64,000 bases of DNA. Origin: Heptranchias perlo. Its lineage: Eukaryota. The notes under the pieces are model-generated. The model did not search any database. It was given only the letters and a program-made list of their open reading frames with translations, and was not told the origin of the DNA. Position numbers and translations under genes: made by a program. The stretch spans positions 41,850,001 to 41,914,000 of the forward strand of contig NC_090345.1 of assembly GCF_035084215.1 (NCBI RefSeq), written 5' to 3'. How positions within the stretch are numbered: the first letter of the stretch is position 1; the number at the start of each line of letters is the position of its first letter. Below are positions 7,631 through 58,051 of the stretch, piece after piece.

Positions 7631-7713
7631 TGTAGATGTTCAAAGGTGTAAATTTGTGTGGTTTGACCACAGTTGCATCAAAAATTGGTAAGAGACCTGT
7701 GGTAGATGACAAT

Positions 7714-8504: not shown

Positions 8505-8710
8505 AAAAAAACAAAAAACACTGGGGACCCTTAGCAGGTCAGGCAGCTGTCAAGAGAACACAAGTGAGTTGGCGTTTTGGCGTTGAATCCTTCAGAAAGG
8601 AAGGGTTTAACCCCCGAAACACTGGTTGTGTGTTCTCGACAGATGCTGCCTGACCTGCTGAGCGTTTTCTGTTGTTGTTTCAGATTTCCAGCACTTGCAG
8701 TATTTTTCTC
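8505..8710. mobile_element. Degraded palindromic Penelope-like terminus (inverted pLTR pair)
   Basis: IR arms ttagcaggtcaggcagc (8531-8547) / gctgcctgacctgctga (8645-8661) and tgtcaagagaacaca / tgtgttctcgaca; centre has a decayed ggaagggttt...cccgaaac resembling a hammerhead core; family assignment is from recall. Confidence 0.5.
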
Positions 8711-9177
8711 AGTGTTGTAATTGTACTTGGATTGTGAAGTTAGTTTCCTCATTACAGAACCTGTAGAATTGGGGAAAATGGAAGTAAGGCAGAGAATTCT
8801 TGGTGTTTCATGGGGTCAAGAAAAAAGCTGTGAAAATCAATGCATATTCACAGAGAAGAATGAAAGTTGGAATCACACTGACATCCAGAAGAAGAAATAA
8901 GGTGAAGCATACCAACATGCTGCACTGGAAAGCAGGATAGAAGTGATGCTTTTATTCTAGATTTGCTTAAGTGTCTTTCTACAAAGTGTCATATACAGTT
9001 ATTCAACGGTCGGGTGAGAAACAGTATTTTTTATATTTTTGCGATCTATTACAGAAAACTTTGACATGTTTGAAGAAGTACACAGGAGTACAGCTGGATT
9101 TCATTCATCTGACCCTTTCAGGGTTCCACTGGAAAACTAATATGTTAAAAATAGTTTGAGAAACTGGCTCATTTTAT

Positions 9178-24689: not shown

Positions 24690-26548
24690 TGGAAATCAGG
24701 AACTCGCTCCCCCAAAAGGCTGTGGATGCTGAAATAACTGACATTTTCAAGACTTAGATCAATAAGATTCTAGTAGGTAAGGGTATTAAGTGATATGGAG
24801 CAAAGGCGGGTAAATGGAGCTGAGAGGAATCGATCACCCATGAACCATTAGAATGCAGCCGATATCCCCACCATCACAGAAACCAGTCTTCAGCCAATTC
24901 GATTCATTCCACACGATAGCAAGAAACGGCTGAGTGCACTGGATATAGCAAAGGCTATGGGCCCCGACAACATCCCGGCTCTAGTGCTGAAGACTTGCGC
25001 TCCAGAACTAGCTGTGCCTCTAACCAAGCTGTTCCAGTTGAGCTACAACACTGGCATCTACCCGACAATGTGGAAAATTGCCCGGGTATGCTCTGTCCAC
25101 AAAAAAGCAGGACAAATCCAATCCGGCCAATTACTGCCCCATCAGTCTACTCTCAATCATCAGCAAAGTGATGGAAGGTGTCGTCGACAGTGCTATCAAG
25201 CGGCACTTACTCACCGATAACCCGCTCACCGATGCTCAGTTTGGGTTCCGCCAGGGCCACTCGGCTCCAGACCTCATTACAGCCTTGGTCCAAACATGGA
25301 CAAAAGGAGCTGAATTCCAGAGGTGAGGTGAGAGTGACGGCCCTTGACATCAAGGTAGCATTGGACCGAGTGTGGTACCAAGGAGCCCTAGTAAAATTGA
25401 AGTCAATGGGAATCAAGGGGAAAACTCTCCAGTGGCTGTTGTCATACCTAGCACAAAGGAAGATGGTAGTGGTTGTTGGAGGCCAATGATCTCTGCCCCA
25501 GGACATTGCTGCAGGAGTTCCTCAGGGCAGTGTTCTAGGCCCAACCATCTTCAGCTGCTTCATCAATGACCTTCCCTCCATCATAAGGACAGAAATGGGG
25601 ATGTTCACTGATGATTGCAGTGTTCAGTTCCATTCGCAACCCCTCAAATAATGAAGCAGTCCGAGCCCGCATGCAGCAAGACCTTGACAACATCCAGGCT
25701 TGGGCTAATAAGTGGCAAGTAACATTCGCGCCAGACAGGTGCCAGGCAATGACCATCTCCATCAAGAGAGAGTCTAACCACCTCCCCTTGACATTCAACG
25801 GCATTACCATCGCCGAATCCCCCACCATCAACATCCTGGGGGTCACCATTGACCAGAAACTTAACTGGACCAGCCAGATAAATACTGTGGCTACAAGAGC
25901 AGGTCAGAGGCTGGGTATTCTGTGGCGAGTGACTCACCTCCTGACTCCCCAAAGCCTTTCCACCATCCACATGGCACAAGTCAGGAGTGTGATGGAATAC
26001 TCTCCACTTGCCTGGATGAGTGCAGCTCCAACAACACTCAAGGAGCTCGACACCATCCAGGACAAAGCAACCCGCTTGATTGGCACCCCATCCACCTCCC
26101 AAAACATTCACTCCCTTCATCACCGGCGCACAGTGGCTGCAGTGTGTACCATCCACAGGATGCACTGCAGCAACTCGCCAAGGCTTCTTCGACAGCACCT
26201 CCCAAACCTGCGACCTCTACCACCTAGAAGGACAAGAGCAGTGGGTACATGGGAACGACACCACCTGTACGTTCCCCTCCAAGTCACACGCCATCCCGAC
26301 TTGGAAATATATCGCCGTTCCTTCATCGTCGCTGGGTCAAAATCCTGGAACGTCCTTCCTAACAGCACTGGGGGAGAACCTTCACCACACGGACTGCAGT
26401 GGTTCAAGAAGGCGGCTCACCACCACCTTCTCAAGGGCAATTAGGGATAGGCAATAAATGCTCGCCTCGCCAGCGACGCCCACATCCCATGAACGAATAA
26501 AAAAAAATGGTGGAATAGGCTTGAGGGGCTGATTGGCTTATTCCTACC
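24690..26548 (+). mobile_element. CR1 3' tail split by LINE-X (24858-26507)
   Basis: ggaactcgctcccccaaaaggctgtggatgct...gatcacccatgaaccattagaatg | tggtggaataggcttgaggggctgattggcttattcct. Confidence 0.7.
24858..26507 (+). mobile_element. LINE-X 5'-truncated copy (RT and C-terminus)
   Basis: MGPDNIPALVLKTCAPELA...NYCPISLLSIISKVMEG...QFGFRQGHS...ALDIK...GVPQGSVLGP...FTDD; frameshifts; poly(A) tail. Confidence 0.92.
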
Positions 26549-29989: not shown

Positions 29990-32150
29990 CGGTAAGCATC
30001 TCAAACACTTTTGTGCACTACCCTCTGAACCTCTTTTCCTCCAACCTCTCCTTCCACAGTGGAACAAAATATTACCTAACTACTTTGTTTTTTGCGCTCT
30101 GCAATTCCCAACTCCCTTGCTTCTGGTCCGCCACCTGCACTGACATTGGCACCTCCAACAATCTGCTCAATAACTCCCTCATCGGCCTCATCCTGATCAG
30201 ATTCTAGATAGCCTGCAGCGAGTGACTCACCTCCTGACTCCCCAAAGCCTTTCCACCATCTACAAGGCACAAGTCAGGAGTGTGATAGAATACTCTCCAC
30301 TTGCCTGGATGAGTGCAGCTCCAACAACACTCAAGAAGCTCGACACCATCCAGGACAAAGCAGCCCGCTTGATTGGCACCCCATCCACCACCCTAAACAT
30401 TCACTCCCTTCACCACCGATGCACTGTGGCTGCAGTGTGTACCATCCACAGGATGCACTGCAGCAACTCGCCAAGGCTTCTTCTACAGCACCTCCCAAAC
30501 CCACGACCTCTACCACCTAGAACGACAAGGGCAGCAGGCACATGGGAACAACACCACCTGCACGTTCCCCTCCAAGTCACACACTATCCCAACTTGGAAA
30601 TATATCACCGTTCCTTCATCGTCGCTGGGCCAAAATCCTGGAACTCCCTTCCTAACAGCACTGTGGGAGAACCTTCACCACACGGACTGCAGCGGTTCAA
30701 GAAGGCGGCTCACCACCATCTTCTCAAGGGCAATTAGAGATGGGCAATAAATGCTGGTCTCACCAGCGACGCCCACATCCCATGAACGAATAAAAAAAAA
30801 TAGCCACCTAGCCTTACATAACAGGCACCTCTGTGGTCTCAATGCTGCGAGCCAGAAACTGCAGCGCATATGGAATTATGACCACCTAACTGTCCAGTGC
30901 TATATCTGGTTTGACCATCTTAAGCAGTACCACTTCTACCACTCCATGGTCAAATCCTCCTACTACTCCAGAGTCATCCTGAAGGGCAACTAAATACTCG
31001 TCTAGCCCATCATTCCCTATCTGAGTCCATCTAATTTGGTTTGTGGCCATCCCAAATGACAGAGACAGCCTCGGCTATAATCACAAATCAAATCCTGTGT
31101 CACTGTGATCACTGCTCACTATCCCTACAGATCCTCCTCAACCACTCTACCACCTTTGACACAGTTGCGCATCTCACCTTCCTCCTCTGCCTCTCCTTCA
31201 CGCTCCACCTCTGTGGCATTGTGCTCTTGTGTTTCCATTCGCATTTCTCCTGAAACTATCACTACTTCTGCTCAAATGCTTTCTCCTCCTGTGCTCACAC
31301 ACTCACCACTGATGTACTCCATCCTAGGTACCCTTCTAATCATTATCTCGATGATACTGGTTGACACCATTCACAAGCATTGGAGTCAGCTTCTCCATTC
31401 ACATTGGTAACACCCAACCCTACTTCTCCGCCACTACCACTGATTCTAGGACTATTGTTGCGATGTTGCACAGCCCGTATGGATTGAAATCCTGGATGAG
31501 CCTCAGCTTAACAGCCATTCTGCTCAGCTTTCACCAACACCTTTACAGCTCTGGTGCTGACTCAATCAACCTGGCTGAGTCAAAGCTAGTGAAACAAATC
31601 CTGGGCTTCTATTCAACCCTGAAATGAACTTTCTACCTTGTTAGCAGTCCGTTGCTGGCTCTGGGCCATCGGCTGCTTATACCCATACCCTACCCTCTTG
31701 CGCTACTGAAACCCTCACCTACGCCTTAATCGCCTTATGGATTGACATTCCAAATGTTCTCGTCTTAGGCCTCCCAACCTCCATTTCAGATAATATAAAT
31801 CATGGCCCTCTTCCACATGAAGCTCTGCACAACCATTACCCTCATCTTTGCCCAGCAACAATAGTTTTCTGTGTCCCAGTGAATTCACTTCAAGATCCAT
31901 GTCCTCAAATACCTCCATAGCTTCACTTTACCCTGTTTGAGTAAACCTTTCCGGCCATACATTCGAGCCTGCACACTCCGTTGCCCTAGCTCTGGATTAG
32001 TGCTCTCCCCCATACCCTGCCACCAGGTCTGCCTTTGTGGACCAAACTTTCAGCCAATAAGCCTTTGCTGACTGTGGTATTTTTTCAAAACTACTTCATT
32101 TTGCTACCGCTCTCACTGATTTCAAAACATACTAAAAATCAATCTCTTGT
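29990..32150 (+). mobile_element. Old L2 LINE fragments, interrupted by LINE-X at 30214-30799
   Basis: Pyrimidine-rich; TETASAIITNQILCHCD...LLNHSTTFDTVAH, SILGTLL, GNTQPYFS. Confidence 0.65.
30214..30799 (+). mobile_element. LINE-X 3' fragment with a 6-bp TSD
   Basis: ORF 30222..30737 identical in type to the other copies; TSD atagcc at 30208-30213 and 30800-30805. Confidence 0.92.
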
Positions 32151-35345: not shown

Positions 35346-36534
35346 TTTTTTTTATTCGTTCACGGGATGTGGGCGTCGCTGGCGAGGCCAGCATTTATTG
35401 CCCATCCCTAATTGCCCTTGAGAAGGTGGTGGTGAGCCGCCTTCTTGAACCGCTGCAGTCCGTGTGGTGACGGTTCTCCCACAGTGCTGTTAGGAAGGGA
35501 GTTCCAGGATTTTGACCCAGCGACAATGAAGGAACGGCGATATATTTCCAAGTCGGGATGGTGTGTGACTTGGAGGGGAACGTGCAGGTGGTGTTCTTCC
35601 CATGTACCTGCTGCTCTTGTCCTTCTAGGTGGTAGAGGTCGCGGGTTTGGGAGGTGCTGTCGAAGAAGCCTTGGCGAGTTGCTGCAGTGCATCCTGTGGA
35701 TGGTGCACACTGCAGCCACAGTGCGCCGGTGGTGAAGGGAGTGAATGTTTAGGGTGGTGGATGGGGTGCCAATCAAGCGGGCTGCTTTATCTTGGATGGT
35801 GTCGAGCTTCTTGAATGTTGTTGGAGCTGCACTCATCCAGGCAAGTGGAGAGTATTCCATCACACTCCTGACTTGTGCCTTGTAGATGGTGGAAAGGCTT
35901 TGGGGAGTCAGGAGGTGAGTCACTCGCTGCAGAATACCCAGCCTCTGACCTGCTCTCGTAGCCACAGTATTTATATGGCTGGTCCAGTTAAGTTTCTGGT
36001 CAATGGTGACCCCCAGGATGTTGATGGTGGGGGATTCGGCGATGGTAATGCCGTTGAATGTCAAGGGGAGGTGGTTAGACTCTCCCTTGTTGGAGATGGT
36101 CATTGCCTGGCACTTGTCTGGCGCGAATGTTACTTGCCACTTATGAGCCCAAGCCTGGATGTTGTCCAGGTCTTGCTGCATGCAGGCTCAGACTGCTTCA
36201 TTATTTGAGGGGTTGCGAATGGAACTGAACACTGTGCAGTCATCAGCGAACATCCCCATTTCTGACCTTATGATGGAGGGAAGGTCATTGATGAAGCAGC
36301 TGAAGATGGTTGGGCCTAGGACACTGCCCTGAGGAACTCCTGCAGCAATGTCCTGGGGCTGAGATGATTGGCCTCCAACAACCACTACCATCTTCCTTTG
36401 TGCTAGGTATGACTCCAGCCACTGGAGAGTTTTCCCCCTGATTCCTATTGACTTCAATTTTACTAGGGCTCCTTGGTGCCACACTCTGTCAAATGCTGCC
36501 TTGATGTCAAGGGCAGTCACTCTCACCTCACCTC
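35346..36534 (-). mobile_element. LINE-X 5'-truncated copy
   Basis: ORFs 36188..36526 and 35408..36181 (one stop apart): ALDIKAAFDRVWH, GVPQGSVLGP, FADD; poly(T) at 35346. Confidence 0.93.
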
Positions 36535-39106: not shown

Positions 39107-39169
39107 TAAATATGTTTATATTCTGTCTCCAACAGTAAATAAGTTGTATAAATAAACTATAGCACAAGC

Positions 39170-39306
39170 TCGTTCACATCGTTCACCTGAGGAAGGAGGT
39201 AGCCTCCGAAAGCTTGTGAATTTAAAATAAAATTGCTGGACTATAACTTGGTGTTGTAAAATTGTTTACAATTGTCAACCCCAGTCCATCACCGGCATCT
39301 CCACAT
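39170..39306 (+). mobile_element. Short Penelope-like element (pLTR fragment), copy 1
   Basis: Perfect 12-bp TSD tatagcacaagc (39158-39169, 39307-39318); hammerhead motif; near-identical to copies 2 and 3. Confidence 0.8.
39182..39220 (+). ncRNA. Minimal type I hammerhead ribozyme motif
   Basis: uucac-CUGAGGA-a-ggagg(uag)ccucc-GAAA-gc-UU-gugaa: stem I uucac/gugaa, stem II ggagg/ccucc, palindromic AAGCUU stem III. Confidence 0.75.
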
Positions 39307-40216
39307 TATAGCACAAGCAACAGTGTTCAGAGGAAGATAATAAAAAATCTGATCCCAAACTAAATTAGTATTTTTATTTATTGGCTTATTGTATGAAAAA
39401 CAAAAATTTGCTACTCATATCTTTATATTATTTATAAATTTTGTGGGCATTGTAGTTCCACAGGAGCAGGGTGATAGTTGCACTTCCTATCATACATCTT
39501 TCTTTCCCACACTCTGAATTTTTCCACAGGACGTAGGACTATCTATCTGGTTGTTATGTGACTTATGTCGAAAATTGGCCAGCTCCTTTTCTGAATTTTA
39601 TAGTGTGACTATATCTGACTGTGGAGATATTCTTTCAGACTTGTACTGATGCAATCTGAAAGTTTTTCCACAGTGCACACACCCAGGCTGTGGGAATTAT
39701 AGGCAAAGGTAGTTGCAAGGAAATGCAGTTACATCGGTGCGGCTGTAGGCAGGGCTATATTAAGAATTCTTCGCACCCTGGGCACAAAGAACATTCGAGC
39801 CCCCACCACACAACCTCCCATCCATTAAAATACAAATATGCAATAAAATGCATGAAGAAATAAGTGCGTAGAATGTTTACACACTGCATTAATAACAAAG
39901 CAAATCATATCACAACATACAACGCTCAAATGAAACTGCTTAATTTTGTGAATAATGCTATTGCATTAGAGATTTAAAGCAATAAAATGAATATAGATGT
40001 CTTGGGATATTGTTAAACCCTTTACCATGATCGTTCTGGGGACGGTCAATGTCTTTTTAAGCACAGCTGCTGTCCAAGGTGCTGTTTTTATTTTCTCCAC
40101 TGCCATTATTTTGTGTTTCATCATTGTATTTCGCACTGAGATCTATTGATCAGCACTGGTAAAAGCTTGTGTGGGTATTGCTCATTAAGTGCATGATCCT
40201 CACCTTATTAATAGGC

Positions 40217-40412
40217 TGTAATCACCAAGCATTGTTCTGTGAATTATAAATGCGATTTCATTTCGAGGATTTCATTTCCACATCGTTCACCTGAGGAAGG
40301 AGGAAGCCTCCGAAAGCTTGTGAATTTAAAATAAAATTGCTGGGCTATAACTTGGTGTTGTAAAATTGTTTACAATTGTCAACCCCAGTCCATCACCGGC
40401 ATCTCCACATCA
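40217..40412 (+). mobile_element. Short Penelope-like element (pLTR fragment), copy 2
   Basis: Perfect 12-bp TSD ttattaataggc (40205-40216, 40413-40424). Confidence 0.8.
40286..40324 (+). ncRNA. Minimal type I hammerhead ribozyme motif
   Basis: Same as 39182-39220 except the stem II loop is aag. Confidence 0.75.
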
Positions 40413-40957
40413 TTATTAATAGGCATCTTCCACAGCTCCACTTTGGACAGAAATGCTGGGATTTCTTGTCCCAGGCCATTTACTCTGTTCAGTTCTGTGT
40501 CCTTGTTTATTTTCCACTCTCTGTGTCTCTCCCCTCTCTTCTGAATGTCTCCAATGTATCAGTGTGGCTCTTACATATTGTTCTTTTAATATGTACTTCG
40601 CATCTATCTCTTACCTTTTAGAGGTCTAGAGTATGCAGACATATACTAGGTTTTAGGTGGATAGGGAATGACTGTGAGAGGTGTTAAAACGTAGGCAGTT
40701 GAGACAGCAGGTAGGACTGGGGGGCAGGCAAGGAGAGACTGTCTACGAGGCCTCAAGATCAAGCTAGGATGGGAGAGACACCAGGTACGTCATGGTGAGC
40801 TGTTGAAGGAAGCATGGGTGGTGGTGGAATGTTGAGCCATTGAAGCGAGCATACATAGCAGGTGAACTTGCTGAAGGGGAACAAGTCGGTTCCAGCTACA
40901 GTGGGAAGTACAAGCAGCTGGTCAAGTCAAGCTGCCAAGTGAACTACAGGCTGGAAT

Positions 40958-41195
40958 TCCAACTTGCATTTATATAGTGCCTTTTAATGCAGTAAAACAT
41001 CCCAAGGTGCTTCACAGGAGTGTATCAAACAAAATTTGACACTGAGCCACATAAGGAGATATTAGGACAGGTGACCAAAAGCTTGGTCAAAGAGGTAGGT
41101 TTTAAGGAGCATCTTAAAAGGAGGGGAGAGAGGCAGAGAGGATTAGGGAGGGAATTCCAGGGCTTAGGGCCTAGGCAGCTGAAGGCATATCCGCC
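40958..41195 (-). mobile_element. L2 3' tail
   Basis: caacttgcatttatatagtgcc...aaatttgacactgagcc...ggaattccagggcttagggcctaggcagctgaaggc is the reverse complement of the L2 tails. Confidence 0.8.
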
Positions 41196-43084
41196 ACAGA
41201 CAGGGAGGCAAACAAGAGCAGATGGACCTGTTATGAGTCACCAAGGCTGGAGCTAATCAAGGGGAACCAAAACAACAACAGAAAAAAAAAGCAGGCACCA
41301 AAGCCCAAGTCCATAATTCAAGTTGCAGGCAAGCACTTCAAATGGAGCCCAAGACAGTCAGCACCTGTGTGAGAAAATGTTTTCTAGAGATTTACAACAC
41401 AGTACCTGGGTTTTATTTAGAATTGTTTAATTGGTTATAAGTTCCTTGTGTTGCAAATGTTACTTACATGAGTGAATTTTCAGTTAGTTGAAAAATCCAT
41501 AATGGTGAGTCAAACCAATTATTTGAACAATTTGACTGGTTTCTACTACTTACCAATTTAGAATTAGTAGAGTTGAAGAACAATTGAAAGATTTGATTAC
41601 TCGGTTTTCTGCTGCTTACTCGTTTCTCATCAACTGAATCATACCATTTTAAGTTCATTCTTATTTACTAAAAATCAGATATTTGATCAGTAACTTTACA
41701 GATAAATGCTTATTCAACCAACCAATCAATAATTTTTGTCCAATGGATCTGTGACATCATGAAGGGTGACATTCTTCAGGTGTGCCAGATCTGAGGCTAC
41801 ACTTCCAGATGTTTCATATGAAAGGCACAGTGTGATGGACCCACATTAGATGAAAGACTTATAGATAGAAAGGTAAAGAGAAACCTTCCATCAAGCACTT
41901 ATACAGATCTGAAGAGCATTAATATGAAGCAAGATACTCTGGGTAGCTGATGACATCCACAGCCTACTACATCAATAACTCAAGAACAGAGTCCTTGGAG
42001 ATGACTGTACTGTAGCATGTTCCTTGTGCAGCTGTGCCAATTAGTTAAATTAACAACAATTAAGCATATTTAAGAGGGTCTGCTCCAATCCAGTCCTGGA
42101 GCAACAGTGCAAGGAGTAGTGCAGGGGTTTAATTATGTAACTTTTTCTGGTCAATACCTTTACAAAAAAAAAATCAGATATTAAACAGGTACAATATGCA
42201 CAGGAGCCTGCAGTGTCATATGAATGCATTTAATGTACCTTTTTATATACCTAGTCAGATCTGAAAAATATACAAATTCTTCATCCTACAGGTCCAAATG
42301 CTTCACAACCTTGACACAAATTTAATTCAGCACTGTTCTAGCACAATTAACCAGCTTGTGTAACATTCCTAAATATATTGTTTTAACAATGTTGTTAACC
42401 AATTTACTTAAATGCTGAGACATGCAGTTAAAGTAGCAGGAATGAAAAATAGCAGCCAATCATAAGGTACCTGGCTAACCCAGGATAATGCCAGCAACCT
42501 GAAGGCTTTTTCCAGAAGTTCAGGGAAAGTTAAGAACTGCACACTGAGTCGGGGGCTCTAACTGAACCGCCAGTGCCTGATTGGGAACAACTTACATGCT
42601 AACCCAAGAAGACACTGATTGCATGAATGCCTTTCCAAGGAGATTTGGAGCAGTAAGAGTTACTTGAGCTTTTGGCTAATAGTAAATGTAGATCTTATTG
42701 AGTTACTTCTCATGCTAGCTTAACACCCAAGGAGAGGCTAGTTTCAAGATATGTGCCTTGAGTCAGAGAGGGCTGTAGACATTTGACTGGGAAATGTTTT
42801 CTTGATAACAAGATAAGCTTCAGTGAACCGAATGGACTTTTATTATTTTCAAAGGGTTTATTTTCTTACACATCCAGGGGATGCAGCTGAGGCCATAGTG
42901 GCCACACAGCACACTGTATAGCATCTGCCAGCAATGTCTCACATTGAAGTGGTGACTGCCCCTTATCCTTTCTTATTTTCTTTTCATCAACAATATGAGT
43001 GTACAATCTGATGATTTTCAACTTACCACAGGCTTCTAAGACACTCAAAATTGCACCCACTACATCTTTTTCCTGCTTTAAACT

Positions 43085-44070
43085 TTGCTTCTGTAATATT
43101 CAAGTGTCTTCTTTGATCCATGTTATAGCCATTTCCATCTGCAATCCTTATCTTTTGTTTGTTACTGAAACCCAAAGTTTCCCTTCCAATCTTCGTCTTA
43201 CACTTTCTACTCCAGTTTCTGATCCAAAGCGAGGTACATGTACTTGTTTTTATTCTGACGAGGCTGCTGCTAATCTTACTCTATTGAATCACCTGGTTTC
43301 AATCTTCTGTGGCAATCTCTCTCTCCTTCTCTCTAATTGATCTTCTAAACTTGATAACTCTCTACAACTTTTCAGCTTTTTGTGAAGCAAACTCAAATCT
43401 ATGAATTCTGACATGCAGTCTGCTGAAATCACTGTTCTCAGTAACTTCGTCATTCAACAAGGGTTCACTTTGCTTCTTTTACTGATGAGGTCAGCACTAA
43501 TCTTGAGTCCTTTGCTAACTTGCATGACCTTGAATAACTCATCAATCAATCTGCCTATTCCCCTGATTGTCCCAGTAATTCAACTAAACTCCAAGACCCT
43601 TATATCACCTCCATTCCTAACTTTTACACTGTATCTGTCTCTTATCACTAGACTTTTCTGACCACCATCAAATTACATTCTGTAAACCAATCTCATCTTG
43701 GTTGGCACTATTAGTTAGCCAGCTACGGTCTTTGAGAATTCTTTGCTGCCTTCTTGTAATCCAATTATAGCTTTCACTCTTCTGACCCTTCTATCTGTGC
43801 CAATGAAACAATTAACGTTGTTTTAAACGGCATGGAAGATTTCATACCTCAACTTTCTCTTGCCATCAGAGTACTATGGTACTACATCTTGGTTCAATCA
43901 TGCCTGTTGTTCTACTGTCTCATAATTATTCTGCCTATTGTGCCTTGATCACTCTAAAGCATCCCAGGCCAACATTGCCTCTCCTCATGACTTCTGTAAA
44001 TCCATAGTTAGTGTTACTAAATAAAATCTTATTAAAATTGCATTAACTGTTGTCTTTTTGCCCTCCAACT
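43085..44070 (+). mobile_element. Ancient LINE ORF2 5' part (APE endonuclease and tether), CR1-group, distinct from the local CR1/L2
   Basis: Manual translation across frames: FCNIQ, PYLLFVTETQ, IESPGFNLLW, AEITVLSNF, FANLHDLE*LI, SDHHQI, SDPSICA...NGMEDFIP, SWFNHAC. Confidence 0.6.
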
Positions 44071-44089
44071 GCTGTTCCTTCTGAGACCA

Positions 44090-44790
44090 ATGCCTGACAC
44101 TCAACTGCTCCTTCTCTTCAGGCATTTCCCCCCTCCTTTTGTAATCACCCCACTCCTTATAACATCAACCCTTAACCCATATATACTCTTTGACTACTCC
44201 CTCATCTCCAACCTCCCCATCCTGTCTAAAGTTCTAGAACATGTCATTGCCACCCAACTCTGTGGCCACATCTCCCTGTTCAAAGCTCTTCAGTTTCGTT
44301 TCCATCCTGACCACAGCACTGAGACTGCCCTGGTCAAAGTCACAAATGACATTCTGTGTGACTATGAAAAAGGTGCTTTATGCCTCCTTATGGCAGTTAA
44401 TATGATCAGGTACACTCCTCTCCCAGTGCCCTCATATTGTTCCATTTCCATGTGTCCCACCAGAGCCAGCTGAACTCCGACAAAGCTTCCTACTCCTGTG
44501 CCTGGATAGTCACCTATGTGTTCCCTAAGGTTCTAACCTTATCTCCCTTCTATTCCTCAACTATATGATATCCTAGCAGCATTATCCATAAGCATGTGGT
44601 CAGCTTTCATATGTATGTGAACAATATCCCACTTTATCTCTCCATCTCCACCCTAGTACATTGGTGCCATACTATCCATTTGCCTGCCTCACATCAAGCT
44701 GTGGATGAACCAGAACTCTCTGCAACTCAACATTTGCAAGAAGAAAGCCATCCTGTTCAAACCCAACCAGAAACTGCAACTTAGACCCCG
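44090..44790 (+). mobile_element. Old L2 RT fragment
   Basis: ISNLPILSKVLEHVI, QFRFHPDHSTETALVKVTNDIL, SFHMYVNNIPLY. Confidence 0.8.
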
Positions 44791-44944
44791 ATTCTAGGGC
44801 AATTTACAAGTCTAATAAAAGACAGGAAAGTGAAATTTTATTCCAAAATGCCCCCACACACCCTATGAGGATAATCACAATCCTGTACCTAGTATGATAC
44901 AACTCAACATGTTTGTTAATGTAAGAGTTTACAAATCACAAGAG

Positions 44945-45185
44945 AGATACAGATGAAGAAGGTCATTTGACCCATCTTAATGTGTTGGTCCTAAAAAAGC
45001 CTACAATCTCCCCATCACAGTGTTCAATTATATTTCTTAAATGATTCCAAGGCTTTTTGCCTCCATTATCCTACCTGGACATTTATTCCATGTGTTGATC
45101 ATTCTTAGTGTGAAGAAGAACTTCCTGACCTCAATTCCAAATTTGCCTTTTGCTACTTTGTGCCCCCTTATCGCAGTTTCATTTG
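44945..45185 (-). mobile_element. Old CR1 3' tail
   Basis: gtgttgatcattcttagtgtgaagaagaacttcctgac is the antisense of VRKFFFTLRMINTW. Confidence 0.65.
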
Positions 45186-46239
45186 AAATCACGATCCAGA
45201 CCAGGGAATGCCTATTCCTCCAGCTGAAAGGTCAGAGAGGACAGAGAATCATTACAATGGAGTTTCTGCTCCCTTTAAGATCCTCCCGGAGGGCAGAGCT
45301 GGGCGTGACTCTGGAATAGGAACACACTCAGCATTGATGAGGTAATTATGTGGCTGTGGACGTTTCCAACCTCCTGCCTCCGCTTCTTGAAGTGACATTC
45401 ATGAAGTAACATCTCAGACACAGAGGTGGGGGCTTGCATTGGGATCCTCCTCAGATCGGAGGCTCTGAGAAGGCCCAGCTGCGAGCCAAAGACCAAGCCC
45501 GAAGGTGAGTGGGTTGTCTTCTTTATTTTCTGGTTGATTCTCAATCTATTCACCAAAAGCAGCCAGAAGGTTTTTTGCCCCAGGTCTGTGCCATGGATGA
45601 AATCAAGCCATGTTAATGGGCTGTCTCACCAAATTACTTGCAGCTCGGCCTGGACAAGCACTGTGCCTGTCCAGCGTTGGGCAGAAGAGGGCCAGGAAAA
45701 TTGGCCCTATCTTTTTATCAACTCCCAGTACAGTCCCATGCTGATACCTAGAAGGAACTTGCATTTATATATCTCAGTGGAGGTCATCTTCCAAGTCTGA
45801 CCTCATATCTGAGTCCTCTAATGCGAGACTTCATTCTCATGGCTCTTCTGCACCACCTCTGGGGCTTGAATATTCTCCTTGTGTCTTGTTGACCAGAAAT
45901 AGATACAATACTCAAGGTGATAAGTAAGTCACACAGTCTTTTTTTCATCCAAAGAATATTGGAATTGTAGAATAAGTCACAAGGAGGACCATTGACGCAC
46001 ACAGTCTGAATGGGTTCAAGAGAACAAATGTCCGATCTGCCCTCCTATCAAGTGTCTACCGATAATCAGGCGGCAGGTAGGTGAGGTGATCTTTGAAAAA
46101 AGGATGGGTTTATAGAGACTAAGTGCTCTTTTTTTTATTTCCATAAGGTAGATTTTCCCAGAGAGATCAATTACTACTTGATTTCCTGCTTGGTTCAGGC
46201 ACATGTTATCAACTCCCAGTACAGCATATACATTTATAT

Positions 46240-46546
46240 AGCACAGCAAGGTCCCACAAACAATAATGACCAGATAACCTGTTCTTTGAGGGATAATTAT
46301 TGGCCAGGACACTGGGGAGAACTCCCCTACTCTTCTTCAAATAGTGCCATGAGATCTTTTACTTTCACCTGAGAAGGCAGGCCTCAGTTAATCATCTCAT
46401 CTGAAAGACAGCACCTCGGACAGTGCAGCATTCCCTCAGTACTGCAGTATCAGCCTAGATTTTTGTGCTCATGTCTCTGGAGTGGGTCTAGAACCTACAA
46501 CCTTCTGACTCAGAGACAAGAGTGCTACCACTGAGCCACAGCTGAC
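46240..46546 (-). mobile_element. tRNA-headed DeuSINE (SacSINE1-like)
   Basis: Minus strand begins gtcagctgtggctcagtgg (A box) ...ggttctagacc (B box); Deu-like core cagtactgagggaatgctgcactgtc...atggcactatttgaagaagag. Confidence 0.7.
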
Positions 46547-47772
46547 ACTAATGTCATTTAACATATAAAACTTAGAAAATGACAAATGAAAGATTCAGTT
46601 TTGCAATTCACCAGGACAAATCCATGTGTGGTGTACATTTTATTTGAGGAACATTCCTGATAGCTCTGTAATGATCTCATACCTTGGTACCAGTGAAATG
46701 AAAAGAGTAATTTGCTTGGTGTTTATTGAGACATTGATTACTGAAATAAAGGTTTTAGGAACAATGATCTCAGATTCTTGCAATTGAAGATGACCACTTG
46801 ATTAAGGACTGCAAACATGTGCTTCCTCCCAAGGTATTGTTAGCAATTTGGGTCTGCCACAGATAGCATCTTGGGTTCAGTAGTTTCTACCTCCCCCTTA
46901 AGCAATCTGAACATCTTTTATGGGAATTGACTCACGTTACCCTGTATCAACTTTTATGATAACATAACTCAAGGATATAAAAAGAGCCTCCCCTTGTAAT
47001 CAGGACCAAATAATCGTTCTTTCGCACATATATGTCCAACCTCTCTGAAAGCAACCAAATAAACACTGTATCCATGTCAGTCATTCTGTTTTATTTTCTG
47101 GTTATTCACACTATGAAAAAGATTAAAAAATCTTCCAACACAATAGGTATTTGACATTTAATGATTTCTGAGACAAGCAAACAAATAACAGTACATGAGG
47201 AAACAGCATCAAAGCTAGCTCATTAGCATCTAAACTACCTCCCTTCTCAGATCACCTTTCGTTTACTTACAGGGATACACTGAGCTTTAACAAACAACAT
47301 TTAAAGTAACTCTTTCATTTTCAAATCCTTTCTGTGGAAAAATGGACAAAAGATGCTGAACCGTGTCAGGTGTATTTCTGAAGCCTATCTTAAAGGTAAA
47401 TGCCTTCATACAGACATCTTGAACAATGTCATTACTCAGGCCTCACTCAAAATCTGTTGATAGGAATTGGACACATTCCCTGCAGAATATCTATATTGTA
47501 TATATGATCGTGTGAAGACAGGACTGATTCTGATTTAGTATGTAGTGTGTCAGCAACAATACTGATTGATGCTTGGCACTATTATTTAGTCAGTTACTGT
47601 TCTATTACATACCACCATTGTTGCTAACAAACTATACTTCTGACAGGACTCATTGCTTGAGGGTGAGGACTGCATGCATTTAAGTTGTTGCACTGTTTTA
47701 TTCATCAGTACTGATTTGTAACCCAATTTTGCAGTATTACTGCTGTTTATGTTCAGCCACTTACTGATACTA

Positions 47773-48001
47773 TGATGTGGAGATGCCGGTGATGGACTGG
47801 GGTTGACAATTGTAAACAATTTTACAACACCAAGTTATAGTCCAGCAATTTTATTTTAAATTCACAAGCTTTCGGAGGCTACCTCCTTCCTCCTTCCTCA
47901 TTTCCACATCGTTCACCTGAGGAAGGAGGTAGCCTCCGAAAGCTTGTGAATTTAAAATAAAATTGCTGGACTATAACTTGGTGTTGTAAAATTGTTTACA
48001 A
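47773..48001. mobile_element. Short Penelope-like element, copy 3: head-to-head inverted pLTR pair
   Basis: Minus-strand arm 47773-47892 and plus-strand arm about 47900-48003; TSD ttactgatacta / ttactgatgcta (47761-47772, 48002-48013, 11/12 match). Confidence 0.8.
47912..47950 (+). ncRNA. Minimal type I hammerhead ribozyme motif
   Basis: Identical to 39182-39220; the minus-arm copy (47861-47892) is truncated inside the CUGA core. Confidence 0.75.
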
Positions 48002-48834
48002 TTACTGATGCTAGGCTTTGCAGCCCATTAAATTCTTGACTATCAGTGGCTGGCACTCCAATGTTGCACTCAGGATTAGAACACAAACCTGCTGATTTTC
48101 TTTTAGAGTGTGGGGGAATAACAATCTATTCCAATAATTAGTTGCTGTGATTGTCTGAACAGCACGAACAGCTTTTTATGCTGTGCAAAATACCCAAATC
48201 AATGGCCATTGCTCATTTCCTCATTGAATTTGCGGGAATTTCTTTCTAAAAAACAGAGGTGGCCTGAACTTTACTCAACAGAAGAAATATAATGAAGCTG
48301 ACATAATTGGTGAAGACCATTTTGATGAAGGCACTATAATGAACTAGTGGATATGGTATCACAGTGCTGGCCAGGCAGCATTATTTTGAGGCTCTTTTTG
48401 TTATTTTATTTCCTCCTGTTTCACCCATATCAACGTTTTATTTGCTGGCGTATCCTCATGGCCAACATCTATTCTGCTCTGTGGTCAATCCATAAGAAAA
48501 CACATTGCAGCAGGACATCAAAGATCCCTTTACTTGGTTTCCCTTTCCCGACTGACCCAGCCAAGAATAACTAAACTCTTGACTCTTGAGAATTCTGAAT
48601 GTGAATGTCAGTTAAGACATAGATTCAAATTCAAGGCTCCCGTTGAAATTCCAGTGTTCTTGCATCGCAGTGTTACAGCAACCAGCGTGATTATGTAGTA
48701 TTCTGTTGTTTACCAAATTTCCATTGACTTCCAAATAGGAAACACTGATTTCAGTAATTCAAACACGACTAAATTAATACAGCCTAGCAATTAAACGCAC
48801 ACCATTTATGGGTTACAAAAAATTATCAGGAAAT

Positions 48835-52314: not shown

Positions 52315-52994
52315 ATTGAAAGTTAATACAGCATGCACTTACTCACAGAAAAAAGATGGCAGAGCAAAAGATTGATGAGAAGAAGAGGTCTTGCAACTTT
52401 GGTGATGAAGACCTCTGCACACTCTTCAATGAGGTGGAAGTGAGGCATCAGCAGTTTTTGGGGAACGAGAAGTGTCGGGCGCCACGGAAAGTCAGCATGT
52501 TGGCATGGAAGGAGGTGGCACAGGTTCTGAGCGCTAACTGCAACGAGCCACGTACAGCGGAACAGTGCTGCAAAACATTTAATGACTTAACACGATCCGC
52601 TTTAAGAAATTTAAAAATTAAGGTTTTATTAAACATCCTTACTGTTACTGATGCAATGAACAGTGAAGAGCTTGTTTATGGGTGGTCAAGGTTCAATCAA
52701 ATGTCAACTAGTCGTAAAACTCAGTTGCCATTGGAGATGGGCTTGTAGTAGCTCATTTTGACTCGTTTTTTGTGTATTGAGTGCACTTTCACACACACAC
52801 TGTAGTTGGTCACGTGACGATGCTGGGCCAATCGGCATTGGTACTACCTATTGTGGCCAGGTAGGGGAAACCCCAGATATTTCTTTGTGTTCTCAGGTAG
52901 CTGGACTCTAAGCAGAAGGCACATTTCTGTAGCTACTCGACATTTTTGTACACATATGGTTTTGTTATGTACTTCAACAATTTATTAGCCTCCT

Positions 52995-53070
52995 CAAGGG
53001 CAATTAGGGATGGGCAATAAATGCCGGCCTCGCCAGCGACGCCCACATCCCATGAACGAACAAAAAAAAA
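52995..53070 (+). mobile_element. LINE-X tail-only copy
   Basis: ctcaagggcaattagggatgggcaataaatgccggcctcgccagcgacgcccacatcccatgaacgaacaaaaaaaaa. Confidence 0.88.
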
Positions 53071-54703
53071 TCTCTGCCTCCTCCCGATATCCCCACCATC
53101 ACAGAAGCTAGTCTTCAGCCAATTCGATTCACTCCACGTGATATCAAGAAACGGCTGAGTGCACTGGATACAGCAAAGGCTATGGGCCCCGACAACATCC
53201 CAGCTGTAGTGCTGAAGACTTGTGCTCCAGAACTAGCTGCGCCTCTAGCCAAACTGTTCCAGTACAGCTACAACACTGGCATCTACCCGACAATGTGGAA
53301 AATTGCCCAGGTATGTCCTGTCCATAAAAATCAGGACAAATCCAATCAGGCCAATTACTGTCTCATCAGTCTACTCTCAATCATCAGCAAAGTGATGGAA
53401 GGTGTCGTCGACAGTGCTATCAAGCAGCACTTACTCACCAATAACCTGCTCACCGATGCTCAGTTTGGGTTCGGCTCCAGACCTCATGGACAAACATGGA
53501 CAAAAGAGCGGAATTCCAGAGGTGAGGTGAGAGTGACTGCCCTTGACATCAAGGCAGCATTTGACCGAATGTGACACCAAGGAGTCCAAGTAAAATTGAA
53601 GTCAATGGGAATCAGGGGGAAATCTCTCCAGTGGCTAGAGTCATACCTAGCACAAAGGAAGATGGTAGTGGTTGTTGGAGGCCAATCATCTCAGCCCCAG
53701 GACATTGCTGCAGGAGTTCTTGAGGGCAGTGTCCTAGGCCCAACCATCTTCAGCTGCTTCATCAATGACCTTCCCTCAACAGGTCAGAAATGGGGATGTT
53801 CGCTGATGATTGCACAGTATTCAGTTCCATTCGCAACCCCTCAGATAATGAAGCAGTTCGAGCCCGCATGCAGCAAGACCTGGACAACATCCAGGCTTGG
53901 ACTGATAAGTGGCAAGTAACATTCGCGCCACACAAGTGCCAGGCAATGACCATCTCCAACAAGAGAGGGTCTAACCACCTCCCCTTGACATTCAACGGCA
54001 TTACAATCGTCGAATCCCCCACCATCAACATCCCGGGGGTCACCAGTGACCAGAAACTTAACTGGACCAGCCACATAAATACTGTGGCTACAAGAGCAGG
54101 TCAGAGGCTGGGTATTCTGCAGCGAGAGACTCACCTCCTGACTCCCCAAAGCCTTTCCACCATCTACATGGCACAGGTCAGGAGTGTGATGGAATACTCT
54201 CCACTTGCCTGGATGAGTGCAGCTCCAACAACACTCAAGAAGCTCGACACCATCCAGGACAAAGCAGCCTGTTTGATTGGCACCCCATCCACCACCCTAA
54301 ACATTCACTCCCTTCACCACTGGCGCACAGTGGCTGCAGTGTGTGCCATCCACAGGATGCACTGCAGCAACTCGCCAAGGCTTCTTCGACAGCACCTCCC
54401 AAACCCGAGACATCTACCATCTAGAAGGACAAGGGCAGCAGGCACATGGGAACAACACCACCAGCACGTTCCCCTCCAAGTCACACACCATCCTGACTTG
54501 GAAATATATCACCATTCCTTCATCGTCGCTGGGTCAAAATCCTGGAACTCCCTACCTACCAGCACTGTGGGAGAACCTTCACCACACGGACTGCAGCAGT
54601 TCAAGAAGGCGGCCCACCACCATCTTCTCAAAGGCAATTAGGGATGGGCAATAAATGCTGGCCTTGCCAGCGACACCCACATTCCATGAACGAATAAAAA
54701 AAA
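53071..54703 (+). mobile_element. LINE-X 5'-truncated copy within Harbinger intron 1
   Basis: ORFs 53182..53574, 53596..53919 and 53790..54641; poly(A) tail. Confidence 0.93.
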
Positions 54704-54951
54704 TGTATTGTTTACGACATCACCTTCATTTAAAGCTCTCCAATGAAACTTTTATTTGAGTGAGTGATTATTTACATTAGTTAAGTTCCTATTTGCTCCT
54801 CGGGCCTCACTAAGTGCTTTTAAAGATCTTTTATCTGCATTCCAGAGATTTAAGGTGTGAAATTGCAATTAGTGAATTAGGCCTTGTCTCCAAACCACTC
54901 AACTTGAACAAGCACAAACTAATTTTTATTTTCATGTCTGTGTAGAGTAAC

Positions 54952-55455
54952 ATGGATTATAATGACCGCGAGTGGTCGATGGTTTATAATGACCATGAGC
55001 GGCCGATGGTTTATAATGACCATGAGCGGCCAATGGTTTATAATGATCGTGAGCGGCCAATGGTTTATAATGATCGTGAGCGGTCGATGGTTTATAATTT
55101 ATGATTGTGAGCGGTCGATGGTTTGTAATAATTGTGACCTGTCGATGGTTGAGCGGTCGATGGTTTATAATGATCGTGAGCGGTCGATGGTTTGTAATGA
55201 TTGTGAGCGGTCAATATTTTTAATGATTGTGAGCAGTCGATGTTTTGTAATGATTGTGAGCAGTCGATGGTTTGTAATGTTTGTGAGCGGTCGATGGTTT
55301 GGAATGATTGTGAGCGGTCGATGGTTTGTAATGTTTGTGAGCGGTCGATGGTTTGGAATGATTGTGAGCGGTCGATGGTTTGGAATGATTGTGAGCGGTC
55401 GATGGTTTGTAATGACCGTGAGCGGTCGATGGTTTGTAATGACCGTGAGCGGTCG
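54952..55455 (+). repeat. 27-bp minisatellite, 19 units (one partial)
   Basis: Consensus atggtttrtaatgaycgtgagcggtcg (MVYNDRERS); units counted manually. Confidence 0.95.
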
Positions 55456-56957
55456 AGGACCGGTGGCGGTGTAGCCTTTACGAAGGAGGTGAGCGAACAT
55501 GAAGAAAGGGACAATCAGCTGCAGAGCAACAATATCAGTTCAGTGCCTGATGCCCAATCAGACATTGGAGTGAGGGAAGGTGAGTGTCACATTCTTGCTT
55601 TGGCCAGCTGCATGTTCAAAACCTGTTTATTGGCTGCAGATTGGGGAAAGGAGATTAGCGTATGATGATTCTCGTGCAGAATATGAGCTTCTGTAATGTG
55701 GCAGATGAACAAGCTTCACCATTGTAACTTTTTTTGTTCTTCTTTCCCATTGGTGCACAGCTGTCTGAGGACCACGGTCTGCGGAGTACAGTGAGTCGGG
55801 GGCCGCAGAGGGTGGTGATGCGATATGTTAGTGGGAGGAGGAGGAAGAATGGGGGGGGGGGGCATCTAGAGGAAGAGGAGAGTGCACTCCCTAGGGGGGA
55901 GGGCAGGTGGAGTGGCGTTGTTACCCCTGTCCCCACATGGCACCTTCAGGGTGCTGATGTGGGGGGGGACGCTTGACTGTGACGTGCCCCACTTCACCCC
56001 CTCTCCAACTCCTAGCCCCTCTGGCTCTGTGCGAGACACAGGCAACTCCCCTCTCACAGGCAGCCGCCAAGCTGCTGCCGCGGGGCCTGAGGGAGGAAAC
56101 GTGATTGATGAGTCCAAACTGTCGGGGTGAGGGACCTTTAGGAGATGGGGGAGATGCGTCCCAGTCCCCTGTAAGACAGTGTACACGTCAGCCCCATGTT
56201 TATGACGACTGGGGAGAGGACTTCATTAATCGACAAGTGAGGTGAACGATGGTTGCTGAACATGACAAGTTCCTTGACTCTTTCGCCTCCATGATACAGA
56301 AGATCAAGGACGTTGGCCAGAACATTTGTGACTAGCTGGTCCATATTGGGCAAAATGTAGGTCATCTTTGCCTGATTATTTTACATGTAGCTGAGGTGAA
56401 TGTTGCGAATATGGCTGTGCTGAACCTGACAACCATGACACCCCCCACAGCTGCCTCCCACTGCAGACACTGTCCAGGCCCAAAAGCCACAGCTCGGCCT
56501 CCACCAGACGCTACTTCTCCCAATGTCCAATTGAAGCAGCAGCAGCCCAGCTCAGAGCTCCCTGATTACAACCAACAAACAAGTCACAGAGGTTGTGCCC
56601 TTGGCACAAGAGGGGTCGGCTTACGAGGAGAGGTGAGGACCAGGAGGAAATAGGGTGCCCATCTCATGCAGGATACACCTCCTCTTGCTCAGACTTTGTC
56701 ACGGCGACCCTCTGGCACGCCTGTGACGGGGCAAGTCTGTTAATTTTTTTGCTGTTTGTTCTTATTCAATTGCTGGTATTTTGTTACTTAATGATTCTCT
56801 TATGATTGTTTGTATTGTAATTTTTGTTGTTGCTGTTGTTGTTGTCCTTAAATTTTAGACAGAAGTCATTTGTAACTGTTTGAAAAATTTTATTAATATC
56901 AACCATTAATATCAACATTGCAACTGTTTCCAAAGTAGAAAATGACTAAATCACCTC

Positions 56958-57938
56958 AATTGCTGCAGGAGTTCCTGAGGGCAGTGTCCTAGGCCGAACC
57001 ATCTTCAGCTGCTTCATCAATGACTTTCCGTCCATCATAAGGTCAGAAATGGGGATGTTCGCTGATGATTGCACAGTGTTCAGTTCCATTCGCAACCCCT
57101 CAGATAATGAAGCAGTCCGTGCCCACATGCAGCAAGACCTGGACAACTTCCAGGCTTGGGCTGATAAGTGGCAAGTAACATTCGCACCGGACAAGTGCCA
57201 GGCAATGACCATCTCCAACAAGAGAGAGTCTAACCACCTCCCATTGACATTCAACAGCATTACATCCTGGGGGTCACCATTGACCAGAAACTTAACTGGA
57301 CCGGCCACATAAATACAGTGGCTACAAGAGCGGGTAAGAGGCTGGGTAATCTGTGGCGAGTGACTCATCTCCTGACTCCCCAAAGCCTTTCCACCATCCA
57401 TAAGGCACAAGTCAGGAGTGTGATGGAATACTCTCCACTTGCCTGGATGAGTGCAGCTCCAACAACACTCAAGAAGCTCGACATCATCCAGGACTAAGCA
57501 GCCCACTTGATTGGCACCCCATCCACCACCCTAAACATTCACTCTCTTCACCACCGGCGCACCGTGGCTGCAGTGTGTACCATCCACAGGATGCACTGCA
57601 GCAACTCGCCAAGGCTTCTTCAACAACACCTCCCAAACCCGTGACCTCTACCACCTAGAAGGACAAGGGCAGCAGGCACATGGGAACAACACCACCTGCA
57701 TGTTCCCCTCCAAGTCACACACCATCCCGACTTGGAAATATATCGCCGTTCCTTCATCATCGCGGGGCCAAAATCCTGGAACTCCCTACCTACCAGCACT
57801 GTGGGAGAACCTTCACCACACGGACTGCAGCGGTTCAAGAAGGCGGCTCATCACCACCTTCTCAAGGGCAATTAGGGATGTGCAATAAATGCTGGCCTTG
57901 CCAGCGACGCCCACATCCCATGAACGAATTTTAAAAAA
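56958..57938 (+). mobile_element. LINE-X 5'-truncated copy between the Harbinger genes
   Basis: GVPEGSVLG, MFADDCTVF...; 3' UTR ending gaacgaattttaaaaaa. Confidence 0.92.
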
Positions 57939-58051
57939 TTATTTACGTTTTGCACTAAGCACTTCAGTATCTAATTAAAGCTTTGCAATAACTACCTGTT
58001 TCTTAAAAGTTTTGCACTAAGTATTTACTGCTGCAATAAAAAGTTCACTGT

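What the first reader, a model, noticed from the sequence alone, without database searches (positions are those of the whole stretch)
39158..48013. Three tiny Penelope-like insertions carrying motif-complete hammerhead ribozymes, all with 12-bp TSDs
Seen in sequence: insertions of 137, 196 and about 229 bp (39170-39306, 40217-40412, 47773-48001) are almost identical to each other and each has its own 12-bp TSD. Each contains uucac CUGAGGA a ggagg-loop-ccucc GAAA gc UU gugaa. The only difference inside the motif is in the stem II loop. Established: Penelope-like elements carry minimal type I hammerheads whose palindromic stem III (here AAGCUU) works as a dimer. Inference: this is a young, ORF-less, ribozyme-bearing mobile unit (extreme PLE truncations or a non-autonomous retrozyme-like family) with a fixed cleavage stagger. 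All three copies retain the ribozyme.
Basis: partly seen in the sequence, partly recalled or inferred. Interest (0 to 1): 0.7.

Follow-up and report, generated by a model that had tools for sequence, protein, structure and literature searches.

The report
Penelope retrotransposon stubs with hammerhead ribozymes
These three tiny inserts are real but are short end-pieces of a very abundant protein-coding Penelope-like jumping gene, not a separate gene-less element; their usual 12-base flanking duplications and their habit of stopping where the element's RNA likely begins give testable clues to how such elements probably copy themselves.

Summary
The insertions are real: two have exact 12-bp TSDs, and the third has 11/12 and is a head-to-head pair. 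Each has one motif-complete minimal hammerhead. They are not an ORF-less family. They match the pseudo-LTR of an autonomous Neptune/Nematis-type Penelope-like element at 95-98% (intact 902-aa RT plus GIY-YIG ORF; 29,176 exact tail copies). In 91 sampled insertions the TSD was 12 bp in 39 of the 70 with one. 3' ends sit at the start codon. 5' ends are not random: 53 of 77 stop 118-160 nt upstream of the ATG, with a sharp edge at an initiator about 30 nt behind a TATA box, and rarely at the ribozyme cut. Likely mechanism: reverse transcriptase runs off the front of uncut mRNA, leaving dead-end stubs. The barrier largely vanishes after a full round (7 of 45), and both arms of an insertion share their length class (58 of 59). 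This suggests a second, circular or multimeric template for long copies. Cleavage and RNA ends are untested, and a cap-G test was inconclusive. This scan noted the same stub reading before on other DNA.

The parts
39158..39169 (+). Copy 1 left TSD (12 bp, exact)
39170..39306 (+). Copy 1: solo pLTR stub, about -135 to -2 relative to the element's ATG, with a 5-nt duplicated filler at its 5' junction
39182..39220 (+). Minimal type I hammerhead motif of copy 1 (stem I, core 39187-39193, extra A, 5-bp stem II, GAAA-GC-UU); predicted cut after 39215, activity untested
39274..39306 (+). PLE 'tail' (about 33 nt), present on main arms and absent from inverted arms
39307..39318 (+). Copy 1 right TSD
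40205..40216 (+). Copy 2 left TSD (12 bp, exact)
40217..40412 (+). Copy 2: stub reaching about -195, i.e. past the TATA box (minority class that passes the 5' barrier); 98% identical to the 3' end of ORF-bearing copy L032
40245..40250 (+). TATA-like box, kept in 19 of the 21 natural long copies aligned (TTCAAA in 2)
40272..40278 (+). Initiator-like TCATTTC; its A (40274) marks the upper edge of the 5'-end pile-up in this subfamily; inferred transcription start
40286..40324 (+). Minimal hammerhead motif of copy 2; predicted cut after 40319
40413..40424 (+). Copy 2 right TSD
47761..47772 (+). Copy 3 left TSD (11 of 12 match)
47773..47892 (-). Copy 3 main arm with tail; 3' end at the ATG position, 5' end at -119 inside the hammerhead core (broken motif)
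47893..47897 (.). 5-nt filler (local duplication) at the head-to-head junction
47898..48001 (+). Copy 3 inverted, tail-less arm from the initiator (A at 47900) to about -35; holds the complete hammerhead motif 47912-47950, predicted cut after 47945
48002..48013 (+). Copy 3 right TSD

Best explanation
The three insertions are short end-pieces (pseudo-LTR plus tail) of an abundant protein-coding Penelope-like retrotransposon of Neptune/Nematis type, and most such stubs are likely made when its reverse transcriptase, primed at a predicted 12-nt staggered cut, starts near the ORF's start codon and runs off the front end of the uncut mRNA. Shown: parent element, TSD length, 3' ends at the ATG, inverted arms starting at -35, and 5' ends piling up between the TATA box and the hammerhead. 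Inferred: (1) the GIY-YIG domain nicks both strands 12 nt apart in AT-rich DNA; (2) one nick primes copying at about +1 and the other often primes a second copy at -35, giving head-to-head pairs like copy 3; (3) on a linear mRNA that starts about 30 nt behind the TATA box the enzyme reaches the RNA end after 130-140 nt (copy 1 and the plus arm of copy 3), so the ribozyme is carried along whole because it lies in the first 50 nt of the RNA and was not cut; (4) stubs lack the TATA box and the ORF RNA and are dead ends; (5) about 30% of arms, copy 2 among them, come from a template without that end (circular, multimeric or joined by a jump), which also gives full-length and tandem copies.
For: Parent: L034 holds a 902-aa ORF with RVT_1 at E 1.6e-10, DKG, YIDD, CX4CxxC linker and VYLI..YIGET motifs; many of the 120 listed homologues carry PF01541. 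The window copies match its pLTR and that of L032 at 95-98%. Sample of 91 terminal insertions picked by the tail alone: TSD 12 bp in 39 of 70, 72% AT; 78 of 91 3' ends within 3 nt of the ATG; 59 of 91 have an inverted arm, 46 of these starting at -33 to -38; 53 of 77 main arms and 38 of 47 inverted arms end at -118 to -160 (2.7 and 3.5 ends per 100 nt against 0.1-0.4 elsewhere). Whole-genome exact counts: hammerhead motif 68,246, TATA motif 20,578, motif near -210 19,139. Single-base edge in the window's subfamily: 1954 matches begin at the T after the initiator A, 1403 at the A, and only 390 one base earlier, of which about 160-265 are expected by chance; 3609 continue further. Only 166 matches begin at the ribozyme cut, about 144 of them truncated, or 0.7% of arms. 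Internal initiation at two sites that define the tail, cutting of both strands, and use of uncut RNA were shown in vitro for the Anolis element (PMC11167929).
Against: No RNA 5' ends could be seen. The cap-G signature was not shown: G precedes the A in 715 of 1403 matches, but mostly at junctions where the inverted arm supplies it; solo arms had G in 7 of 24, with one clean extra G. The pile-up is broad, and several arms end upstream of the predicted start (-143 to -160). In the second subfamily the median end (-136) lies upstream of TATA+30 (-131), although -131 is its commonest end. Alignment-based ends can overshoot. Ends at the cut are 2-3.5 times my rough background (144 versus 41-81), so a small cut-RNA fraction is not excluded. 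In the Anolis element the start sites lie 111-118 nt inside the ORF, not at the ATG. The sample comes from the first 8.9 Mb of one contig.
Confidence: 0.72

Rival explanations
1. An ORF-less, self-propagating hammerhead retroelement (retrozyme-like or SINE-like), mobilised in trans as a unit.
For: Short copies outnumber long ones (67 of 91 main arms end within 160 nt) and mostly keep the motif. Published non-LTR retrozymes derive from pLTRs (bioRxiv 10.64898/2026.07.22.740005). One 404-bp tandem array of this family exists elsewhere.
Against: No sequence of its own: 95-98% identical to the pLTR of ORF-bearing copies. Three different 5' ends in three copies; 49 distinct centres in 50 short two-armed insertions, and copy 3's centre recurs in 0 of 333 loci. 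Not tandem and not bounded by the cut site. Most stubs lack the TATA box.
Confidence: 0.04
2. The pile-up is caused by the folded hammerhead or an RNA dimer stalling reverse transcriptase, or by end-joining that favours this region, not by an RNA start.
For: The pile-up begins at the core (-118) and is about 40 nt wide. Stem I and II sequences give microhomology for head-to-head joints. No cap G or RNA evidence.
Against: Most ends lie beyond the structure, with an edge at the initiator A 29 nt behind the TATA box. Solo arms without a partner also end there (24 of 71 arms). The same structure stops only 7 of 45 arms on a second pass against 53 of 77 on the first.
Confidence: 0.17
3. Ordinary random 5' truncations of a LINE-like element with variable TSDs.
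For: Beyond -160 the ends are spread evenly at about 0.1 per 100 nt.
Against: A 14- to 27-fold higher end rate at -118 to -160, and a TSD mode at 12 bp; a 70% drop between adjacent motifs genome-wide.
Confidence: 0.02
4. The inverted arm arises by fold-back self-priming of the first cDNA rather than by a second priming event.
For: 27 of 59 pairs end within 5 nt of each other; arms differ at only 74 of 5430 aligned positions. Self-priming was proposed in PMC3846280.
Against: In 17 of 59 pairs, and in window copy 3, the inverted arm reaches further 5' than the main arm, which fold-back on the first cDNA cannot give. Some pairs differ at sites that are polymorphic in the family.
Confidence: 0.1

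Closest known systems
Endonuclease-bearing Penelope-like elements, Neptune/Nematis type (Craig et al. 2021, PMC8557442; passages)
   Same: Single ORF with RT, CX2-5CxxC linker and C-terminal GIY-YIG; 5' truncation, partial tandems, adjacent inverted copy, 30-40 bp tail on one end, hammerhead in the pLTR.
   Different: The passages seen report no fixed TSD length and no pile-up of 5' ends. Neptune versus Nematis was not resolved by a tree here.
[quoted passage not shown]
   Same: Type I, 5-bp helix I, extra nucleotide between A9 and G10.1, G10.1-C11.1 pair, palindromic 15.2-16.2, no loop 3; thousands of solo motifs and opposite-strand pairs per genome; reported in fish Neptune elements.
   Different: Helix II is 5 bp here (7-8 in their Schistosoma families). 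At least 68,246 motifs here against about 4,000-9,000 in coelacanth and Xenopus. They read solo motifs as probably truncated PLEs without mapping ends.
Poseidon element PAc of Anolis carolinensis (Frangieh et al. 2024, PMC11167929; abstract, main text)
   Same: Two RT start sites spaced by the tail, AT-rich targets, uncut RNA as the main template, no ends at the ribozyme cut.
   Different: Other clade. PAc start sites lie 111-118 nt inside the ORF and its ORF begins inside the hammerhead; here the starts are at +1 and -35 and the hammerhead is in the 5' leader. TSD length and stub ends are not treated in the text seen.
Adineta vaga Penelope insertions (Arkhipova et al. 2013, PMC3846280; passages)
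   Same: Inverted pLTR plus tail, palindromic junctions, putative TATA and initiator in the pLTR, solo pLTRs.
   Different: TSDs quoted there are 8, 9 and 10 bp in single cases; low copy number; self-priming proposed.
Metazoan non-LTR retrozymes (PMC7229834 passages; bioRxiv 10.64898/2026.07.22.740005 parts 1-3 of 5)
   Same: ORF-less DNA with type I hammerheads, related to pLTRs.
   Different: Retrozymes are head-to-tail tandems with a ribozyme in each unit and give circular RNAs; the window copies are solo or head-to-head stubs with one complete motif each.

Membership tests
EN+ Penelope-like element | Linked to a single ORF with RT and C-terminal GIY-YIG endonuclease | tested here: met
   902-aa ORF in L034; RVT_1; VYLI 791 and YIGET 805, conserved in alignment A1. 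Pfam GIY-YIG did not score on this protein itself but is listed for many homologues.
EN+ Penelope-like element | pLTR from partial tandem arrangement | tested here: met
   L034 has an upstream partial copy plus a full copy; 842 exact pLTR-ORF junctions.
EN+ Penelope-like element | Inverted 5' copy and one-sided 30-40 bp tail | tested here: met
   59 of 91 insertions; inverted arms start at -27 to -47, mode -35; window copy 3.
Neptune/Nematis clades | CX2-5CxxC linker between RT and EN | tested here: met
   CX4CxxC at residue 753; definition from PMC8557442.
Neptune clade proper | RT phylogeny with reference Neptune elements | not tested
   No named reference elements were available from the tools.
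Minimal type I hammerhead (PLE type) | CUGANGA and GAAA core, stems I and II, palindromic 15.2-16.2, NUH site | tested here: met
   Stems I and II fold (z about -2). In 149 motif matches the helix III dinucleotide is GC in 144, and the stem II closing pair varies G-C 87, A-U 33, G-U 21, A-C 5, C-G 3 (a few rows are another family).
Minimal type I hammerhead (PLE type) | Self-cleavage as a dimer | not testable with these tools
   Predicted active dimer -23.5 kcal/mol against -26.0 for two monomers and -35.8 for an inactive dimer, so help from protein would be expected, as for PAc.
Non-LTR retrozyme | Head-to-tail tandem units, each with a complete hammerhead | tested here: not met
   Window copies are solo or head-to-head; no tandem repeat at them.
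Non-LTR retrozyme | Propagates as its own unit | tested here: not met
   49 distinct centres in 50; ends not at the cut site.
Non-LTR retrozyme | Expressed as small linear and circular RNA | not testable with these tools
   Only assembled contigs of runs guessed to be RNA were available.

The most novel reading that the evidence does not exclude
The element uses two RNA templates. Uncut capped mRNA yields strong-stop-like stubs that carry the hammerhead. A hammerhead-cleaved and ligated RNA circle yields the long and tandem copies that regenerate the promoter. The endonuclease would cut with a fixed 12-nt stagger.
Probability: 0.3. Interest if true: 0.72.

Novelty: new member of a known kind. 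Interest (0 to 1): 0.4.

Why it matters
As sequence it is ordinary: three of tens of thousands of pLTR stubs of a Penelope-like element. The value lies in the population. How PLEs regenerate their pseudo-LTRs and what their hammerheads do is stated as open (PMC2377424, PMC4209133, PMC11167929). This young family gives a precise natural read-out: 12-bp stagger, starts at +1 and -35, run-off at an initiator, and loss of that barrier on the second round. These make sharp predictions for an in vitro system of the kind already built for the Anolis element. It also explains why genome scans find so many solo minimal hammerheads, and warns against annotating them as separate SINE or retrozyme families.

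Tried and rejected
Rfam scan: no hammerhead family hit; mir-4716 and similar hits are the copy 3 palindrome, below their gathering scores. Cap-G test as proof of a capped RNA start: 715 of 1403 looked strong but was confounded by microhomology with the inverted arm; solo arms had G in 7 of 24, so the test is inconclusive. RNA evidence: no RNA holder listed; four contig sets guessed to be RNA covered all 30 bins of L034:3300-6900 but cannot show starts, ends, strand or level. The first 30 loci were chosen by score against the whole query and were not used for end statistics. A subfamily shift of ends with TATA position was weak (medians -138 and -136, modes -138 and -131). Cut-site-bounded copies as the main product: rejected. 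Lunse et al. on dimer cleavage could not be read and is known here only through a review passage. Paper searches listed no title on a fixed 12-bp PLE TSD or on stub ends at the transcription start, and the papers I read in part showed none. The library lacks most subscription papers and Repbase, and supplements were not seen, so this does not show absence from print.
Full report
OBSERVATION. The three insertions are at the stated places. Copy 1 (39170-39306) and copy 2 (40217-40412) have exact 12-bp TSDs. Copy 3 (47773-48001) has an 11-of-12 TSD and is a head-to-head pair: a minus-strand arm with the tail, cut at -119 inside the ribozyme core, and a plus-strand tail-less arm with the whole motif. 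Positions with a sign are relative to the element's start codon. The motif folds into stems I and II (z about -2). Rfam has no matching hammerhead model hit.

PARENT ELEMENT. A search of the own genome G000 (3.25 Gb) gave long copies. L034 (G000:C31) holds an upstream partial copy and a full copy with an intact 902-aa ORF and a 3085-nt unit. The protein has RVT_1 (E 1.6e-10), DKG, YIDD, a CX4CxxC linker and GIY-YIG-type VYLI..YIGET motifs. The closest named proteins are from sharks (93-94% Heptranchias perlo, 80-85% Scyliorhinus and Mustelus entries). The linker places it with Neptune/Nematis (PMC8557442 passages); no tree was built. The window copies match the last 120-195 nt before the ATG of L032 and L034 at 95-98%. 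The 36-nt tail occurs 29,176 times exactly and the pLTR-ORF junction 842 times. The ORF-less reading therefore fails its first test.

SAMPLE. I took the first 100 listed tail matches (contig C1, 0.25-8.9 Mb), fetched loci for 99, and obtained 93 unique ones; 2 were internal tandem junctions, leaving 91. Two of the 91 (L068, L069) look like a segmental duplicate and both were counted. An exact TSD of 8 nt or more was found in 70 of 91 (null 20 of 2000). Lengths: 8:2, 9:1, 10:4, 11:2, 12:39, 13:14, 14:3, 15:3, 16:2. The longer ones fit 12 plus chance extension (my arithmetic). The 12-mers are 72% AT. 78 of 91 3' ends lie within 3 nt of the ATG, and 39 of 58 share 1 nt or more with the target. 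59 of 91 have an inverted arm starting near -35 (all).

5' ENDS. 53 of 77 main arms that reach -118 stop by -160, and so do 38 of 47 inverted arms: 2.7 and 3.5 ends per 100 nt against 0.1-0.4 elsewhere. Whole-genome counts agree: 68,246 hammerhead motifs, 20,578 TATA motifs about 45 nt upstream, and 19,139 for a motif about 50 nt further on (the patterns differ in length, so the ratios are rough). A TATAAA box at -160 to -168 is kept in 19 of 21 long copies. In the window's subfamily an initiator-like TCATTT(C/T) has its A 29 nt behind the box (window 40245 and 40274). Matches beginning at the next T number 1954 (inflated by T-run slippage), at the A 1403, and one base earlier 390, of which about 160-265 are expected by chance; 3609 continue. 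At the ribozyme cut only 166 matches begin; 26 of 30 inspected were truncated, giving about 144 or 0.7% of arms, 2-3.5 times a rough background, some explained by stem I microhomology. Against a sharp start: the pile-up is about 40 nt wide, some arms end at -143 to -160, and alignment ends can overshoot. A cap-G test (precedent for LINE-1: PMC4859970 passages) was inconclusive: 715 of 1403 have G, but junction microhomology explains most, and solo arms had G in 7 of 24 with one clean case. No RNA ends were obtainable.

TWO TEMPLATE CLASSES. Of the first 100 listed pLTR-ORF junctions I fetched 89 loci, skipping array repeats. 86 junctions were examined and 17 dropped for having under 600 nt of ORF. 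In two-armed insertions both arms are short in 50, both long in 8 and discordant in 1 of 59 (p 4e-9). A constant chance of jumping per arm fits neither result well. A mix of templates, one with a 5' end at the initiator and one without, fits both. The second could be a ribozyme-made circle, as proposed in PMC4209133, or multimeric transcripts from tandem arrays, which exist here. My data do not separate these, and joining that trims the longer arm could add to the concordance.

NOT A UNIT OF ITS OWN. 49 distinct centres occur in 50 short two-armed insertions. Copy 3's centre recurs in 0 of 333 loci, and copy 1's junction duplication recurs in 2 other loci, inside head-to-head junctions. In 17 of 59 pairs the inverted arm is longer than the main arm, which favours two priming events over fold-back.

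RIBOZYME. Among 149 motif matches the helix III dinucleotide is GC in 144, and the closing pair of stem II changes between G-C, A-U and G-U, which points to selection on the fold in source elements. The modelled active dimer (-23.5 kcal/mol) is not favoured over two monomers (-26.0) or an inactive dimer (-35.8). That fits the weak or protein-assisted cleavage reported for PLE hammerheads. Activity is untested here.

MECHANISM. Shown: parent, TSD, end distributions. Inferred from these and from the Anolis work (PMC11167929): staggered nicking, internal starts at +1 and -35, run-off at the mRNA start, and end-joining of arms with small fillers. Copy 1 and the plus arm of copy 3 fit run-off. Copy 2 includes the TATA box and belongs to the class that passes the barrier.

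WHAT IS KNOWN. Architecture, tail, inverted pLTR, minimal hammerhead and abundant solo motifs are published. Papers seen: PMC11167929 and PMC4209133, parts 1-2 of 4; bioRxiv 10.64898/2026.07.22.740005, parts 1-3 of 5; PMC8557442, PMC3846280, PMC2377424, PMC7229834, PMC6765202 and PMC4859970, passages; no supplements. Ten searches listed nothing on a fixed 12-bp TSD or on run-off stubs, within a library that lacks most subscription papers. Earlier AI notes of this scan reached the same stub reading many times in this and other genomes; they are not independent support. I had the TATA reading and ran the second-pass test before seeing them.

VERDICT. New member of a known kind. Interest 0.4, for end statistics that make the open PLE replication question testable.

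Noticed in passing
G000:C2:21273038-21276303 (L187): Nine junction matches at 404-bp spacing. The three units inside L187 each hold the TATA box, a complete hammerhead, the tail and the first 128 nt of the ORF. This internally deleted tandem fits the published definition of a non-LTR retrozyme and is the better candidate for an ORF-less mobile unit. One locus; spread not tested.
   Followed up: partly
L151/L152 (G000:C1:66240575-66240864): Two junctions 256 bp apart, with TATA box and hammerhead repeating at the same period: a similar mini-tandem.
   Followed up: partly
L034:3360-8400 (G000:C31); G000:C1:4461000-4467200; G000:C1:188733834-188740033: A partial tandem with an intact 902-aa ORF, and arrays at about 3083-bp spacing, which could be sources of multimeric transcripts.
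   Followed up: partly
loci L037-L156: At least three matches to a different minimal hammerhead family (other stem II, CG or CT in helix III), so further PLE families are present.
   Followed up: no
L002, L003, L004, L009; L034: Main and inverted arms differ at one site near -70 in the same way as the two pLTRs of L034 differ, hinting that the arms can come from different pLTRs or RNAs. These loci were picked by a query that carries one variant.
   Followed up: partly
window 54952-55456: 27-bp minisatellite, about 18 copies.
   Followed up: no
window 1274-1514, 24859-26508, 30124-30801, 35346-36534, 52989-54705, 56959-57939: Several 92-97% identical 3' fragments of one LINE family with RT-like frames, plus older LINE fragments.
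   Followed up: no
G000:C1:704233-704299, 1568336, 1808590 and others: Related hammerhead variants with other stem II closing pairs (A-U, C-G), apparently from sister subfamilies with a different tail.
   Followed up: no
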